Positions 3,485-52,170 of a stretch of DNA of 64,000 bases are shown here, piece by piece. Numbering within the stretch: position 1 is the first letter of the stretch; the number at the start of each line of letters is the position of its first letter. The notes below the pieces were generated by a model, which was given only the letters and a program-made list of their open reading frames with translations, did no database searches and was not told the DNA's origin. The translations under genes were made by a program, and so were the position numbers. The stretch comes from an uncultured Candidatus Saccharibacteria bacterium (lineage in GTDB: Bacteria; Patescibacteriota; 4484-211; JAGQKX01): contig CAYMOT010000002.1 in assembly GCA_964392315.1 (NCBI GenBank), forward strand, positions 139,637 through 203,636, given 5' to 3'.

Positions 3485-3802
3485 CGTAACCTCCGTTTAC
3501 AGAAATTTGAAGGGGCGTGCTTCGAATACATCCGTGTCAGGGGATGACACAAGAAACAATAAACCGCGGAAGCAGCACGGTCGTGTTCCTTATCGGTTTT
3601 CGTGACGATGCACGTCGGATCCTGCGGGGAAACGCATTGATTCCTCAATCGTTGGCGTTTAATCCGATAGAGAAGAGATAGTGTTGGGTACTATCATTTG
3701 GAGAGATATGTGCAGGTGGTGGGGATTCTAAGCGAACTTAGGAGGAGGAGAGGGGAAAAAGAGAGGAAGGTACAAAGGGGAAAGGAGTTAATAAGCGTTC
3801 AT

Positions 3803-3838
3803 TTACATATTTGTACTATTTGCATATTTGCTTATTTT
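3803..3838 (+). promoter_or_regulatory. Copy of the TTGTAC-TATTTG promoter-like motif (-35 TTGTAC, 16-nt spacer, -10 TATTTT) with no plus-strand gene downstream
   Basis: ATTTGTACTATTTGCATATTTGCTTATTTT. It lies between two minus-strand genes, so it is either an antisense/sRNA promoter or a protein-binding site used in either orientation. Confidence 0.3.
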
Positions 3839-3904
3839 CTCCTCCCCCACTTATACCGATTCCTCGTAAGTTGTTAATGTTCCTGACAAAGAGGCAGTGG
3901 ATTT

Positions 3905-9296: not shown

Positions 9297-9767
9297 ACTT
9301 TCCTTCCTTTTCAAGGATGCCTTAGGAAAGATTCGTTTAACGCCCATCGGCGTTCTGATCTGAATTGTGCATACCCTAGATGCAACGGGCCAAATCAGCC
9401 CGTGGTGTCTCCGTGAGACGAGTGAAGCTGAACATTGGGTTACTTCATCTAAGAAGTTCTAAACTGGGTGTTTAGAGCAATGCAGCAAGTTATATGGCTT
9501 GTTTTCTTTTGGTGGGAACCTAAAAAAACAAAGGTGTGAGGGGTATTGTGACATATATGCAGGGAGGCATATGTTTGTCTGGGAAGCGTCAGGTAGGGAG
9601 CCTGATTTTGCAAACGTGTGCAGTGCTTCTAATTGGTCGTAAAGACCGTAAAGCGGGGAGTCTTGGGAGAGGAGAGGAAGATAGGAAAGTACAAATAAGC
9701 AGATAAGCAAATACTATAGGACCAGCTTGGTTAAGTAAGGATCTGATTGATAAGGGTATTGAAACAT

Positions 9768-9796
9768 GAAAAAAGCCACCTTTTCCAAGGGTGGCT
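9768..9796 (-). terminator. Intrinsic terminator for the 458-aa gene (GCCACC-CTTGGAAAA-GGTGGC + T-run on the minus strand)
   Basis: Hairpin 40 nt after the stop at 9836, followed on the minus strand by TTTTTT. Confidence 0.6.
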
Positions 9797-9835
9797 CTGC
9801 GAATCGCCCGGCTGGGCCGAGCGACTCATAAATGG

Positions 9836-11212
9836 TTACTTCTTGCTTGTCAATGCGTCAAGCCAATTGGCCAAACGCTCCATCCATCGTGGAATGGGGA
9901 ATCTCATTCCCACCAACTCATCGAATTGAGAGGCAGTAACGGCTTTGGCCAACGCACGACGGATCGCGTTTCGGAAACGCAGTGCACGGATGTGAGATCT
10001 GCTCCAAGGTTGTATCTCAAATCGGGGTCTTTCACCGGGATGCCAGATTACTCCGACAGCAACACCGTCGTCTTTGTTTCCAAAGAGATCGAAGCCGTAC
10101 TGTGTACCGGCGTATTCCCCCATCCAGCGCTCGAAGCGCTCTCCTGTTCTGTTCTCCTCGTTAGGCAGGTTCTCCAGGATCGCCTCCACGATGTGCCGGC
10201 AAAGGTGTAGCGTTTCCACTGGACCATAGGGTTCAATTCCCTTCCAATCTCGTCGTGAGAATGAACGGAACACCTGAACAGTCCTTTTTGGATACTTACC
10301 CTGATTATTGGAGATTACTGTATTGCAAAATCCAACATATTCGAGAGCAGGGTTTTCCAAAAAAAGTCTGTCCACTAGCCAATACAGAATTCTCGGCAGT
10401 TCTTGTGTACCTCCAGATGGCGCGAGGAAGACGTGGGTAACAGGAAGATGCTCCATGGAATCTTGAATCGACGTGGGAGTGAAATGGTTCTTGAAGAAGA
10501 AAGTCTCAAGTGTACCCGTAATCCCTAATTCAGTCGATAAACCTGTATCCAGGTCAACACCATGATACCGGTCATCATCATCAAGGAGCTGCACGATCAA
10601 CCCAAATGGACCCGTTACCGGTCCATAATGTTGCCAATAACTGCCATTGGCTGAAGTCACCTTCCAGAAGACACGATTGATTGGCTCGACGCGTGTCTCC
10701 AGGTACGGGAATAGTTGTCGAACCAATTCACCTTGATCATGTTCGTAGGTAACCGGGATCATCCCTTTAGGCAGCCTAGGACGAGCGTATCGGTCTCCAA
10801 CCTTTAGGGCTTGGATACTTCCACCCTTTGGATCTCGGGCCATCATCCAATCGCCACCCCAGTCATAGAGTTCTTCGAGTCGACCTGTTTCTAACAGGTG
10901 GTTGTAGATATCAAAGAACTCTTGTGAAGTCATTGGCCAGCCCGTGGATGCGACTTGGACATTCCAGAAGTGTCCGATGAACGGACTTGTCCGAACGAGC
11001 TCATCGATTTGGGTGGGTATTGCTTTTAAGGCGTCCAATTTGGACATTGGAGCTGATCTCAGAAACCTCCCATCATAGGCTGCAAACGCCTCAAATTGCT
11101 CTTTCCACCAAATGTGAGAAATACCCACCGATATCCACGGTATCCTCAGATTGGTGGGCTTACCCGGTCTTACTTCGATGTACGGCTTACGTGAAACCAT
11201 CCCACTCGTCAT
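9836..11212 (-). CDS. Hypothetical 458-aa protein (GC-rich, Trp-rich, LLDDDDRYHGVDLDTGL acidic block)
   Basis: Long intact ORF in the GC-rich block. ATGA start/stop overlap with the upstream 98-aa gene. Dedicated terminator downstream. No domain recognised. Confidence 0.6.
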   Translation of the reverse strand: MTSGMVSRKPYIEVRPGKPTNLRIPWISVGISHIWWKEQFEAFAAYDGRFLRSAPMSKLDALKAIPTQIDELVRTSPFIGHFWNVQVASTGWPMTSQEFFDIYNHLLETGRLEELYDWGGDWMMARDPKGGSIQALKVGDRYARPRLPKGMIPVTYEHDQGELVRQLFPYLETRVEPINRVFWKVTSANGSYWQHYGPVTGPFGLIVQLLDDDDRYHGVDLDTGLSTELGITGTLETFFFKNHFTPTSIQDSMEHLPVTHVFLAPSGGTQELPRILYWLVDRLFLENPALEYVGFCNTVISNNQGKYPKRTVQVFRSFSRRDWKGIEPYGPVETLHLCRHIVEAILENLPNEENRTGERFERWMGEYAGTQYGFDLFGNKDDGVAVGVIWHPGERPRFEIQPWSRSHIRALRFRNAIRRALAKAVTASQFDELVGMRFPIPRWMERLANWLDALTSKK

Positions 11213-11505
11213 GACGCCACCTCCGCATGTCCGTTGCCAAGACGCAGTTGTTCGCGGACGATTTCCAGAACGTCATCGCGGACTGATGCCGTATAGGCAT
11301 CAACCCGGAAATAGAGCCCTGAGATATCGATCGTAACAAAGTTGCCATCAAGGCCTATGCGTACCGGAACAGAGGGCACTTTTAGGGGAACCGTGATCTC
11401 AGCATCCAGATCAAGCAGAGCGAGAACTTCCTCGCGACCGAACAAAACGGCCCACTTCGAATGGCCGTTTATTCCAACGGAAATAAAACGTTTGTTTGTA
11501 TTCAC
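11209..11505 (-). CDS. Hypothetical 98-aa protein (GTG start), first gene of a coupled pair with the 458-aa gene
   Basis: AAGGAG SD 6 nt upstream of the GTG at 11505. Its stop overlaps the ATG of the 458-aa gene. Confidence 0.45.
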   Translation of the reverse strand: MNTNKRFISVGINGHSKWAVLFGREEVLALLDLDAEITVPLKVPSVPVRIGLDGNFVTIDISGLYFRVDAYTASVRDDVLEIVREQLRLGNGHAEVAS

Positions 11506-12365
11506 AACATTCTCCTTACATCATCTTCTAAAGGAAAACACGTTGGCGTTCCCAGCTTCCCGGGCTGAGGGTTTTTGAACACAGTTTGATGCAACTATGC
11601 GTCGCATCGAGGACAGGCTAAAAGCGGATGCATGTAAAACCAAAATCACGCATCACACTATCCTCTCGTCTTAACCCAGTCGTCAGTAAAACGACCTGGA
11701 TTTTGAAGACTTCTCGTGTTGTCGTCACGAGCATTAAATGGACCGTTTCCATCGGGTGATGGAAATCCTACTAGGAGATTCGGCCATTCCTCACGGCCAC
11801 GGACTCGCCACGTATGACGAGCCGTTCGCAGTTGATCCAAAACTGCTTTTGGAGCTGACTGACACATCAGCTTTTTGTATGAGGGGAATTGCAGGCGCAT
11901 GCACGGTAGCCCATGCATGGCAAATATGCGGGGACAGAACTTGAATGGTGAATTCAAGGTGTTTTCTTCAATACCAGTCGGGAGACAGGTAAGGAAAAAA
12001 CGAGGGTTTTTGGTAGGAGTTTTGTCAACCTAACTGACAGGGTGGTCAGTATAACGGTTGTATTGAATCATTTGATTGGGAGTCAAATGTGTCTTTGATA
12101 GACGTATTCAATTAGAGGAATTGAAAAAGGGTGGGGGTCGAAAGAGAGAGGAAAGGTATACTTTGTGTTTTTGCCAAGAATCAACTTGATCCATGGGTTA
12201 TTAGTTAATTAACAAAGTGCACGTTTCCTCCATCTTAAGTACCTTGATCCTTTCTAGTCCTACTTTCCCTATTCCCTCATACATAATATATATAGATTGT
12301 TAATGAACGGAAAATATGGTGCGAATTATACGCGTAAATTACATATATGTAAATACTATGGGACC

Positions 12366-12930
12366 AATATGTCATTTAAAAAATGTTATAGAAAGATACT
12401 GTAGTGTATGCAGCAAAAAGCCCTCCGCATCTCCCCCATAGTTTGGAGTTGCGAAGGGCAGCTATTAGGCCAATATAGTACATGGCCTTTTTAAGTCCCG
12501 AAGGACTCGAACTATTTTCTTGGCTGGCTCTACACCGTAGCCCCAAGAGCGCCGTTCGAAGGCTGAGGAGTCCGCTACCCTTACACATGTAAGGACGGCT
12601 GAAGATCTGTTACCAGACCTTTTGTTTTGGTACGCACAAGTCGTACCCTCCGCTACTCACCTGCCCTCTTTCGATCTCGCAGGTTGCCGTATGACTTGAG
12701 TAGCCGCATAGGCTGTATTGGTGAGTATTATGATAATTCTTTTGGTTCAGGAAGTGCCGAGGGGCAGGCGATTCCAGGCACCTACCCCTCAAACATCCGT
12801 CCTCCGGTGATTCACGCCTCGCTTCGTGAACATTTATGCCTTCATGTACAACACATCTAGAGTAATAAGCTAATAATCAAATAATCCAATAAACAAATAT
12901 ACAAATAAATTGAAAGGCCTATAAACGAAT
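12366..12930 (+). ncRNA. Candidate large structured non-coding RNA of unknown class
   Basis: ORF-free 1.3 kb gap. GC-rich island (12400-12860) inside AT-rich DNA. Nested perfect helices (GCTACTC..CCTGC..GCAGG..GAGTAGC) and a pseudoknot-like GTGCC/GAGGGG..GGCAC..CCCCTC arrangement. An upstream AAATACTATGGGACC promoter-like motif and a downstream CCTCCC hairpin terminator (12932-12968) bracket it. tRNA-Leu follows. Confidence 0.3.
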
Positions 12931-12931
12931 G

Positions 12932-12968
12932 AACCTCCCTTTTGTGGGAGGTTGTGTATTTGTTTCTT
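12932..12968 (+). terminator. Intrinsic terminator CCTCCC-TTTTGT-GGGAGG + T-rich tail
   Basis: Perfect 6-bp GC stem followed by TTGTGTATTTGTTTCTTT. Same hairpin family as 6143 and 6527. Confidence 0.5.
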
Positions 12969-13236
12969 TGATTTATAAAACAAACCTCCCTATGAATAAT
13001 TGCCAATAATGACAAAAAGCATAGTATCCTGGTGCTTGGTCCAGGATGTGGAGATCTGAGAGTTGGTTGCGAAACAGCTGTACATACTAATGTGGACTAT
13101 AACGTTATTTAATATGTCCGTCAATGGGAGGTTATAATATATAAATACACCAATAATCTAATAGTCGAGTAGCCTAAATAGTAAAAATAATAATAATCAT
13201 AATCATATAAATAATAAAGATAGGCACCTATCAATC

Positions 13237-13280
13237 GATTTGCTTATTTGTACTATTTGTAGTATTTGTTTATTACTCAG
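13237..13280 (+). promoter_or_regulatory. Sigma70-like promoter for tRNA-Leu (-35 TTGTAC, 17-nt spacer, -10 TATTAC, 5-6 nt to the tRNA 5' end)
   Basis: TTGCTTATTTGTACtatttgtagtatttgttTATTACtcagG, where the final G is tRNA position 1. Confidence 0.55.
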
Positions 13281-13365
13281 GCCGGTGTGGTGAAATTGGC
13301 AGACACGCTTGGTTTAGGACCAAGTGCCGAAAGGCTTGGGGGTTCAAGTCCCTCCACCGGCACCA
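13281..13365 (+). tRNA. tRNA-Leu (anticodon TAG), class II with a long variable arm
   Basis: Hand-folded. Acceptor GCCGGTG/CACCGGC, 3-bp D stem, anticodon arm CTTGG-TTTAGGA-CCAAG, 13-nt variable arm, T arm GGGGG-TTCAAGT-CCCTC, A73, encoded CCA. Confidence 0.85.
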
Positions 13366-13432
13366 CAAAAAATAATTTCAAATAATCAAATATACAAATA
13401 AGCAAATAGAAAGAGGGTAATTTTCGAATACG

Positions 13433-22417: not shown

Positions 22418-22437
22418 GCCTGCCTTCGCAGGCAGGC
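22418..22437. repeat. GCCTGCC-TTCGC-AGGCAGGC hairpin 20 nt upstream of the tRNA-His 5' end
   Basis: Perfect 8-bp stem. A near-identical stem (CCTGCC-TGCA-GGCAGG) sits 13 nt upstream of the tRNA-Gly 5' end at 52122-52139. Confidence 0.5.
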
Positions 22438-52121: not shown

Positions 52122-52139
52122 ACGCCTGCCTGCACAGGC
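52122..52139. repeat. CCTGCC-TGCA-GGCAGG hairpin 13 nt upstream (minus strand) of the tRNA-Gly 5' end
   Basis: Same stem sequence as the tRNA-His-associated hairpin. Both are followed by (G/A)TA(T/C) before the tRNA. Confidence 0.5.
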
Positions 52140-52170
52140 AGGTAAATAATCAAATCAATTATAACAAAAG

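What the first reader, a model, noticed from the sequence alone, without database searches (positions are those of the whole stretch)
12336..12968. Candidate ~560-nt structured ncRNA in a 1.3-kb ORF-free gap upstream of tRNA-Leu
Between 11960 and 13280 there is no credible ORF, which is unusual in this dense genome. Inside it, 12400-12860 is a GC-rich island with nested perfect helices (CGCTACTC-ACCTGC-[14-nt loop]-GCAGGT-..-GAGTAGCCG), a pseudoknot-like GTGCC/GAGGGG..GGCAC..CCCCTC arrangement and a GUCC-UUCG-GGAC tetraloop hairpin. It is preceded by an AAATACTATGGGACC element (also found at 9706; -10-like TACTAT) and followed by a strong CCTCCC/GGGAGG terminator at 12932-12968, which defines a plus-strand transcription unit. 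It does not match tmRNA by eye (no tRNA-like 3' end with CCA). It also lacks the universal RNase P GGAAAGUCC/ACAGAAA motifs. It could be a large ornate RNA of the ROOL/GOLLD/HEARO kind; these are often tRNA-adjacent. It could also be a novel class.
Basis: partly seen in the sequence, partly recalled or inferred. Interest (0 to 1): 0.65.

Follow-up and report, generated by a model that had tools for sequence, protein, structure and literature searches.

The report
Opposite-strand mosaic noncoding RNA beside tRNA-Leu
The flagged GC-rich island is probably a real structured noncoding RNA, but it lies on the opposite strand, is about 445 nt long, and only its first ~105 nt are conserved in relatives, so it is an orphan small RNA fused to lineage-specific sequence, not a new large ornate RNA class.

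Summary
The ORF-free gap, the GC-rich island and the helices are real, and no Rfam family matches. The strand and boundaries are wrong. G-U pairs, three special tetraloops (cUUCGg, GAAA, GUAA) and an intrinsic terminator (12459-12420 plus U5) exist only on the minus strand. The unit runs about 12858->12413 (~445 nt).

The "terminator" hairpin at 12932-12953 lies upstream of the RNA.

Relatives show a three-part mosaic:
- **5' module (12858-12750):** conserved in two related metagenome contigs. Two hairpins carry 6 compensatory pairs and none is broken. In those contigs the RNA ends after ~150 nt.
- **Middle (12739-12509):** found only in this lineage.
- **3' hairpins and terminator (about 12517-12413):** shared with a third lineage. 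From 12459 they lie in a ~3.1-kb, nearly identical recombination tract (9337-12459), and in that lineage an unrelated structured sequence precedes them.

Best reading: an orphan small RNA gene whose working core is the 5' module, fused by recombination to variable structured sequence. Its function was not tested. Interest is moderate to low. Next to it, an 810-nt, very strongly folded leader (12318-11506) deserves its own look.

The parts
12860..12925 (-). AT-rich region of 8-nt periodic TTATTTGN units ending in TTATTACTC; likely promoter region of the RNA
   Evidence: TRF finds period 8 at 12864-12909. The same TATTTG..TTATTACTC sequence ends 2 nt before tRNA-Leu. L009 has a different AT-rich sequence of the same type, but the CTAGATG start is kept. 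Promoter function is inferred, not shown.
12832..12858 (-). 5' leader AGAUGYGUUGUACAUGAAGGC, nearly invariant and mostly unpaired in the predictions
   Evidence: 21 nt identical in window, L003, L004 and L009 apart from one C/U position.
12810..12831 (-). Hairpin a: GUUCACG [AAGCGAGG] CGUGAAU
   Evidence: 7 pairs, 2 of them changed on both sides (UU..AA to AA..UU in L003). The loop differs at one position in L009.
12755..12795 (-). Hairpin b: UGUU-u-GAGGGGUAGGUG [CCUGGAAU] CGCCUGCCCCUC-GGCA
   Evidence: 16 pairs, 4 changed on both sides, 100% of cells paired. Five pair positions carry G-U that alternate with A-U or G-C in relatives; on the plus strand these would be A-C mismatches. The loop is invariant.
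12509..12739 (-). Middle module, seen only in this lineage. It is closed by GAAUUAU/AUAGUUC and holds a two-hairpin arm (12704-12652, GAAA loop), a three-way junction (12651-12567, GUAA loop) and a further arm (12548-12518)
   Evidence: MFE structures. For 12512-12712, z = -3.3 on minus and -1.6 on plus. No homologue in any fetched locus by blastn or by model R2.
12493..12508 (-). GAGUCC-UUCG-GGACUU hairpin (cUUCGg tetraloop). Homology with L016-L020 begins nearby, around 12499-12517
   Evidence: Sequence. L016 has ACCC-UUCAUU-GGG at this position.
12467..12488 (-). Hairpin AGGCCA [10 nt] UGGCCU
   Evidence: L016-L020 have AGGCCG..CGGCCU, an A-U to G-C compensatory change at 12483/12472.
12415..12459 (-). 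Intrinsic terminator: 10+4-bp stem GCCCUUCGCA.CUCC / GGAG.UGCGGAGGGC followed by UUUUU (12419-12415)
   Evidence: On the plus strand the stem has an extra mismatch and is preceded, not followed, by the A/U run.
12932..12953 (.). It lies upstream of the minus-strand RNA
   Evidence: Conserved in L003, L004 and L009.
12325..12365 (-). GGTCCCATAGTATTTAC element overlapping a near-consensus sigma70-type promoter (TTTACA-17-TATAAT) that faces away from the candidate
Evidence: (11 of 12 matches, minus strand).
11506..12318 (-). Neighbouring ~810-nt ORF-poor, hairpin-dense leader of the ORFan operon (98 aa + 458 aa)
   Evidence: -273.5 kcal/mol and z = -10.5 on minus; -253.9 and z = -3.8 on plus. 20 hairpin loops. 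No Rfam match.
13281..13365 (+). tRNA-Leu(TAG) between 18-nt inverted repeats (13235-13252 / 13393-13410)
   Evidence: Inverted in L003/L004 relative to window and L009.

Best explanation
The island is an independently terminated noncoding RNA gene on the minus strand, about 12858->12413 (~445 nt). Its conserved and presumably functional core is the first ~105 nt: a nearly invariant unpaired 5' leader and two hairpins with near-invariant 8-nt loops. The rest is a recombination mosaic. It comprises a self-closed 230-nt structured module found only in this lineage, then two hairpins and an intrinsic terminator that it shares with a third lineage; from 12459 these lie in a ~3.1-kb tract exchanged with that lineage.

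The most likely mode of action is that of a regulatory small RNA. It would contact RNA or protein partners through the invariant leader and loops, while the 3' part supplies termination and stability.

Shown here: the strand, the terminator, covariation in the two 5' hairpins and one 3' hairpin, and the mosaic conservation. Inferred: the promoter and 5' end, that the RNA is expressed, and the regulatory mechanism.
For: Strand:
- The minus strand folds 12-24 kcal/mol better than the plus strand over the same spans. 445 nt: -171.5 against -147.6. 328 nt: -121.9 against -109.8. 201 nt: -74.3 against -62.1.
- The UUCG, GAAA and GUAA loops exist only on the minus strand.
- The terminator followed by U5 exists only on the minus strand.

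5' module, from a three-sequence alignment (window, L003, L009):
- 23 pairs, 98.6% of cells paired.
- 6 pairs changed on both sides; 1 of 500 shuffles reaches this.
- Slid controls pair in only 35-48% of cells.

Short form: in L003 and L009 the RNA is followed after ~20 nt by the terminator of convergent genes.

3' hairpin: one compensatory A-U to G-C change in L016-L020.

Folding background: z = -5.5 for 12413-12740 on minus, the most extreme of the windows scored (128 background windows).

Not coding and not a known family:
- No Pfam hit for any ORF.
- No remnants of neighbouring genes by tblastn.
- No Rfam family.
Against: - Only three close relatives exist (coding DNA 76-97% identical), so covariation rests on few events.
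- There are no expression data.
- The promoter is a guess: the TATTTG-type repeats occur in both orientations in this genome.
- The middle 230 nt has no homologue, so its structure rests on thermodynamics alone.
- Other noncoding regions of this ORFan-rich stretch also fold unusually well. A high z-score may therefore be a regional property, not a mark of this RNA.
- A conserved 5' part with replaceable 3' parts also fits a leader or a promoter-proximal element.
Confidence: 0.5

Rival explanations
1. One functional ~445-nt large structured RNA on the minus strand. The long-range helix CCGGAGGAC (12807-12799) / GUCCUUCGG (12506-12498) would tie the 5' module to the 3' end, making a new lineage-specific ornate RNA.
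For: The full-length MFE and centroid agree and enclose the middle module in that helix. z = -5.9. Three extra-stable tetraloops and several multi-helix junctions are present.
Against: The two nearest relatives lack everything after about 12735. L016-L020 share only the last ~105 nt. The 3' strand of the long-range helix competes with the local cUUCGg hairpin. No homologue of the middle was found.
Confidence: 0.15
2. A cis-acting leader. The 5' module and structured region would control read-through of the terminator at 12459-12415 into the downstream ORFan operon, as a riboswitch, attenuator or processive antiterminator.
For: Same strand as the downstream genes 98 aa and 458 aa. A terminator lies between the RNA and the genes. 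Long structured leaders are a feature of this region.
Against: A near-consensus sigma70-type promoter (11 of 12) sits between the terminator and the operon. In L003 and L009 the 5' module faces convergent genes, with nothing downstream to control. In L016 the same terminator and operon follow an unrelated sequence. No riboswitch family matches.
Confidence: 0.12
3. No dedicated function. The sequence is a scar of repeated recombination in a hypervariable region, transcribed by accident if at all, and only looks structured.
For: Three breakpoints lie within 450 nt. The middle is an orphan. Neighbouring noncoding regions also give strongly negative z.
Against: Compensatory changes keep both 5' hairpins and one 3' hairpin. 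Leader and loops are nearly invariant while the 5' module as a whole is only about 88% identical in L009 and coding DNA differs by 3-24%. The strand asymmetry and special tetraloops are not expected of junk.
Confidence: 0.15
4. One reading: a plus-strand ~560-nt RNA running from a promoter near 12350 to the terminator at 12932-12968.
For: The hairpin at 12932-12953 has a T-rich tail on the plus strand. The plus strand also folds better than shuffles, z = -3 to -4.
Against: No plus-strand promoter was found near 12350. 9 of 69 paired cells in the conserved hairpins would become A-C mismatches on the plus strand. The tetraloops read CGAA, UUUC and UUAC there. The plus strand is 12-24 kcal/mol less stable.
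Confidence: 0.03
5. A very divergent housekeeping RNA (RNase P RNA, tmRNA, SRP RNA or 6S RNA) that the Rfam models miss.
For: The likely small, reduced genome is inferred, not shown. By eye, GAGGACGG (12804-12797) could pair with CCGUCCUU (12598-12591) downstream of an ACAGA, loosely like helix P4 of RNase P.
Against: No RNase P, SRP or 6S model reaches E <= 10 on 1.5 kb with lax filters. ARAGORN finds no tmRNA. The would-be P4 3' strand sits in a stable local hairpin. L003 and L009 lack that whole region, which an essential RNA could not tolerate.
Confidence: 0.03

Closest known systems
Independently transcribed bacterial small regulatory RNAs that end in an intrinsic terminator
   Same: A noncoding unit with its own terminator. 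It has a conserved unpaired 5' stretch and conserved hairpin loops, variable stems with compensatory changes, and sits in an intergenic region next to a tRNA gene.
   Different: At ~445 nt it is three to four times longer than usual, through a lineage-specific structured extension. No target, chaperone or expression data exist, and the promoter type is unknown.
Large ornate RNAs (ROOL, GOLLD, HEARO/omega RNA, OLE)
   Same: A GC-rich, multi-junction, tetraloop-rich island in an AT-rich, ORF-free gap near a tRNA gene.
   Different: No match to any Rfam model, even at E <= 10. It is shorter, not conserved as one unit, and has no IscB/TnpB-like neighbour.
TIGR arrays of parasitic (CPR) bacteria and phages (PMC12045711)
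   Same: Noncoding, hairpin-rich RNA loci next to uncharacterised proteins in the same kind of organism.
   Different: There are no tandem dual-spacer units. Hairpin loops are 3-12 nt, mostly 4-7, not the roughly 30 nt or more that a dual-spacer unit would need (my estimate from the paper's description). No Nop-domain protein is detected.
Long structured 5' leaders and 3' UTR-derived RNAs
   Same: Strong local folding on the gene strand and position between genes. In L016 an unrelated structured stretch follows a protein gene and uses the same terminator.
   Different: In the window the unit has its own conserved start region and is separated from the downstream operon by a terminator and a promoter.

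Membership tests
ROOL / GOLLD / HEARO / OLE / raiA (large structured RNAs in Rfam) | Match to the family covariance model | tested here: not met
   cmscan of the whole window at gathering thresholds finds 5 tRNAs only. cmscan of 11900-13400 and 11300-12450 at E <= 10 lists none of these families.
Bacterial RNase P RNA | Covariance-model match, and a P4 helix formed by the conserved GGAAAGUCC and ACAGAA..GGCUUA strands | tested here: not met
   No RNase P model at E <= 10. The motifs are absent on both strands. The nearest look-alike 3' strand lies inside a local hairpin.
tmRNA | tRNA-like acceptor and T arm plus a tag reading frame | tested here: not met
   ARAGORN reports no tmRNA. Rfam tmRNA scores 14-15 bits against a gathering score of 47. 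That hit is at 12946-13156 on the plus strand, mostly outside the flagged interval and wholly outside the minus-strand RNA, with no tRNA-like ends.
TIGR-Tas | Tandem repeat or stem-loop units with two spacers, next to a Nop-domain protein | tested here: not met
   TRF finds only 8-12-nt AT-rich repeats. Neighbouring proteins have no Pfam domain. Criteria taken from PMC12045711.
Stand-alone structured small RNA gene | Intrinsic terminator at the 3' end on the RNA strand | tested here: met
   A 14-bp stem followed by U5 at 12459-12415 on the minus strand.
Stand-alone structured small RNA gene | Secondary structure maintained by compensatory substitutions in relatives | tested here: inconclusive
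   Met for the 5' module (6 of 23 pairs, none broken) and for one 3' hairpin. Untestable for the 230-nt middle, which has no homologue. Only 3-4 sequences are available.
Stand-alone structured small RNA gene | Own promoter and a detectable transcript | not testable with these tools
   Only a promoter-like AT-rich repeat shared with the tRNA-Leu upstream region. No transcriptome data.
Degraded protein gene | Translated similarity to proteins across the region | tested here: not met
   No Pfam hit for any ORF. tblastn with neighbour proteins of L003, L009 and L016 is negative. The 77-aa ORF hits only a tandem-repeat protein, through seven summed ~25-bit matches.

The most novel reading that the evidence does not exclude
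The ORFan-rich stretch of this probably CPR-type genome may carry a set of long, exceptionally folded noncoding RNAs: the 445-nt unit, the adjacent 810-nt unit, and the leaders at 3485-3904 and 9348-9835. These would be swapped between lineages as modules, with a conserved 5' RNA module joined to interchangeable structured 3' modules. That would be a new kind of modular large RNA tied to fast-evolving genes, not an ordinary small RNA plus scars.
Probability: 0.1. Interest if true: 0.7.

Novelty: new member of a known kind. Interest (0 to 1): 0.35.

Why it matters
If the 5' module is expressed, it would be a structured regulatory RNA candidate with covariation support from a little-studied, host-dependent group of bacteria (the CPR assignment is itself inferred). 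It would also show how recombination hot spots beside tRNA genes can remodel an RNA gene. The practical lesson for the scan is that strand assignment by eye was wrong here. G-U asymmetry, tetraloop identity and terminator polarity are cheap checks that would have caught it.

Tried and rejected
**Known RNA families.** Rfam at gathering thresholds on the whole window, and at E <= 10 on 11300-13400 and on L009 and L016, gave nothing but tRNA.

**RNase P by eye.** A loose P4-like pairing was rejected (see rivals).

**tmRNA.** A recurrent 14-15-bit partial hit at 12946-13156 on the plus strand is noise and lies outside the RNA.

**Searches for homologues:**
- The 458-aa neighbour matches only itself.
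- Genome contigs with the deacetylase gave one 28% hit in an unrelated MAG.
- Phage and plasmid collections gave tRNA only or nothing.
- A viral contigs pattern scan gave nothing.
- The metagenome-contig scan with a three-block pattern gave a single chance hit inside a GC-rich coding region.
- NhaA-based handles (L010-L013) carry no copy.
- Sortase and deacetylase exact look-ups returned only the source contig.

**Covariance models.** R1 (5' module) and R2 (137 nt of the middle) found no further copies. R2 scored at most 2.4 bits on L016, even with filters off.

**Protein-gene tests.** The pseudogene test was negative. AlphaFold2 on the 458-aa ORFan gave pLDDT 35 and was unusable, so no fold search was run.

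**Other ideas dropped:**
- TIGR arrays, an integron attC site and a MITE: no tandem units, no long terminal repeats, no extra copies.
- A target search for the conserved leader: 5 sites at up to 3 mismatches against 2 expected, which is not significant.

Full report
**Context.** The window matches a metagenome contig (Logan ERR2586217). Its genes are bacterial: transporters, a Mur ligase, a histidine kinase, sortase. The named relatives of the deacetylase gene next to the finding come from candidate division WWE3 and Saccharibacteria at 34-39% identity. A CPR/Patescibacteria-type organism is therefore likely, but this is inferred from one protein. The genes to the left of the finding (98, 458, 198, 500, 703 and 515 aa) have no Pfam, PHROG or PADLOC match. 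The 458-aa protein matches only itself among 5.8 billion proteins.

- The gap is real. No ORF over 77 aa lies in 11958-13280, and none has a family match. The 99-aa TTG ORF at 11658-11957 has no ribosome-binding site and looks random.
- GC rises to 0.50-0.53 in 12400-12800 between AT-rich flanks.
- The listed helices exist.
- No Rfam family matches at gathering thresholds or at E <= 10, and ARAGORN finds no tmRNA.
- Folding is far beyond chance. The 445-nt minus strand gives -171.5 kcal/mol, z = -5.9. The 328-nt 3' part gives z = -5.5, while 128 other windows of the same size average -0.27 (sd 1.2, minimum -3.9).

**The strand is the other one.**
- Over every span tested, the minus strand is 12-24 kcal/mol more stable and has the more negative z.
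cUUCGg (12502-12499), GAAA (12672-12669) and GUAA (12613-12610) exist only on the minus strand.
- A classical intrinsic terminator, 10+4 bp followed by UUUUU, sits at 12459-12415 on the minus strand.
- In the conserved hairpins, five pair positions hold G-U in some genomes and A-U or G-C in others. On the plus strand these would be A-C mismatches.
- The promoter scan finds no plus-strand promoter near 12350.
- The CCTCCC/GGGAGG hairpin at 12932-12953 therefore lies upstream of the RNA.

**Relatives.** Three close relatives of the deacetylase gave contigs that reach the region: L003 and L004 (coding DNA 76-93% identical) and L009 (88-97%). All keep window 13055->12755 and then diverge completely.

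The conserved RNA part starts at a shared CTAGATG, just after an AT-rich 8-nt periodic repeat that ends in TTATTACTC. The same sequence precedes tRNA-Leu. The part consists of:
- a 21-nt leader, invariant but for one C/U;
- hairpin a (12831-12810);
- hairpin b (12795-12755).

On the three-sequence alignment, 23 pairs are 98.6% paired. Six changed on both sides and none is broken in hairpin b. One of 500 shuffles reaches this, and slid controls pair in 35-48% of cells. In L003 and L009 the RNA is followed within about 20 nt by the terminator of convergent genes (103/140 aa and NhaA). There the unit is only about 150 nt long.

**The 3' end belongs to something else.** Exact look-up of the 98-aa neighbour gave contigs L016-L020. 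Their flanks are unrelated or about 75% identical to the window. Yet window 9337-12459 is virtually identical in them, with 2 differences in 3.1 kb and mismatches clustered at both ends. This is a recent recombination or transfer tract. It carries the terminator, the sigma70-like promoter, an 810-nt leader and the two ORFan genes.

Homology extends at about 85% identity to roughly 12499-12517. That stretch includes the hairpin AGGCCA..UGGCCU, which is AGGCCG..CGGCCU in L016, a compensatory change. Upstream of that point L016 carries a different ~300-nt sequence after a 329-aa gene. It is also strongly folded on the same strand (z = -4.9 against -2.8). It is unrelated in sequence and in structure (model R2, at most 2.4 bits).

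**The middle.** Positions 12739-12509 occur only in the window lineage. It folds better on the minus strand (z = -3.3 against -1.6 for 12512-12712). No homologue was found in any fetched locus or collection. It shows no translated similarity to neighbour genes of the relatives. The one protein hit of its 77-aa ORF is an artefact of seven summed weak matches to a tandem-repeat protein.

**Interpretation.**
- Shown: a minus-strand unit with a terminator, a 5' module kept by compensatory change in three genomes, and a three-part mosaic.
- Inferred: the promoter, the exact 5' end and expression.

I commit to a stand-alone regulatory small RNA. Its working surface would be the invariant leader and loops. 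Recombination in a hypervariable, tRNA-adjacent region replaced its 3' portion in this lineage. The mechanism itself (pairing with RNA or binding a protein) is untested, and I give the whole statement about 0.5.

The main rivals are:
- one functional 445-nt RNA (0.15);
- a cis-acting leader of the ORFan operon (0.12);
- recombination scars without function (0.15).

The plus-strand model and a divergent housekeeping RNA are each about 0.03.

**Comparison with known systems.** It behaves like a terminator-ended small RNA gene with an unusual extension. It is not a member of ROOL, GOLLD, HEARO, OLE, RNase P, tmRNA or any other Rfam family tested. It is not a TIGR array. It is thus a new, orphan member of a known general kind.

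**Limits.**
- Covariation rests on three close sequences.
- The metagenome scan returned only a chance match.
- Strong folding is shared by other noncoding regions of this ORFan stretch, which weakens z-scores as evidence for this RNA in particular.

Noticed in passing
window 11506-12318 (minus strand): An ~810-nt ORF-poor stretch between a near-consensus sigma70-type promoter and the 98-aa gene folds at -273.5 kcal/mol (z = -10.5, 20 shuffles). The plus strand gives -253.9 (z = -3.8). It has 20 hairpin loops, many on perfect 6-9-bp stems, and a GA-rich/CU-rich long-range duplex. There is no Rfam match. It is arguably more striking than the flagged island.
   Followed up: partly
window 9337-12459; L016-L020: A ~3.1-kb block (terminator, promoter, leader, 98-aa and 458-aa ORFan genes, next leader) is virtually identical, with 2 differences, in contigs whose flanks are unrelated or ~75% identical. 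This is a recent recombination or transfer tract, with mismatches clustered at both ends.
   Followed up: yes
window 13235-13410; L003 3189-3320; L005-L008 contig ends: tRNA-Leu(TAG) lies between 18-nt inverted repeats and is inverted in L003/L004 relative to window and L009. In the 55%-identity lineage it is co-oriented with the deacetylase, and all four contigs stop at the tRNA. This suggests an inversion polymorphism or an assembly-breaking repeat.
   Followed up: partly
window 3485-3904 and 9348-9835 (minus strand): The regions upstream of the other ORFan genes are G-poor, carry CU-rich tracts and fold strongly on the gene strand (z = -6.1 and -4.7). Intergenic regions elsewhere in the window give z of about 0 to -3.
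   Followed up: partly
window 9707-9723 and 12349-12365 (minus strand): A GGTCCYATAGTATTTRC element occurs twice, each at the head of a long leader. At 12349-12365 it overlaps the -35 box of the sigma70-like promoter.
   Followed up: partly
window 22419-22436 and 52125-52142: An identical-stem hairpin, CCTGCC-N6-GGCAGG, sits 15-25 nt upstream of the mature 5' ends of tRNA-His and tRNA-Gly. These are the only two occurrences in the window, with none expected by chance. It may be a leader or processing element.
   Followed up: partly
window 13012-13124 (minus strand): There is a sigma70-like promoter (TTGACG-17-TATAGT, 13124-13096), then a conserved hairpin ATCCTGG..CCAGGAT (13047-13026), and a U5 run a few bases after it. 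This could be a separate ~75-nt small RNA or the terminator of upstream transcripts. The hairpin is identical in L003, L004 and L009.
   Followed up: no
window 12864-12909, 13245-13269, 13378-13408, 9692-9713: AT-rich repeats with an 8-9-nt period (TTATTTGN / CAAATAAG) mark many intergenic regions in both orientations. Their role (promoter, protein-binding site, DNA bending) is unclear.
   Followed up: no
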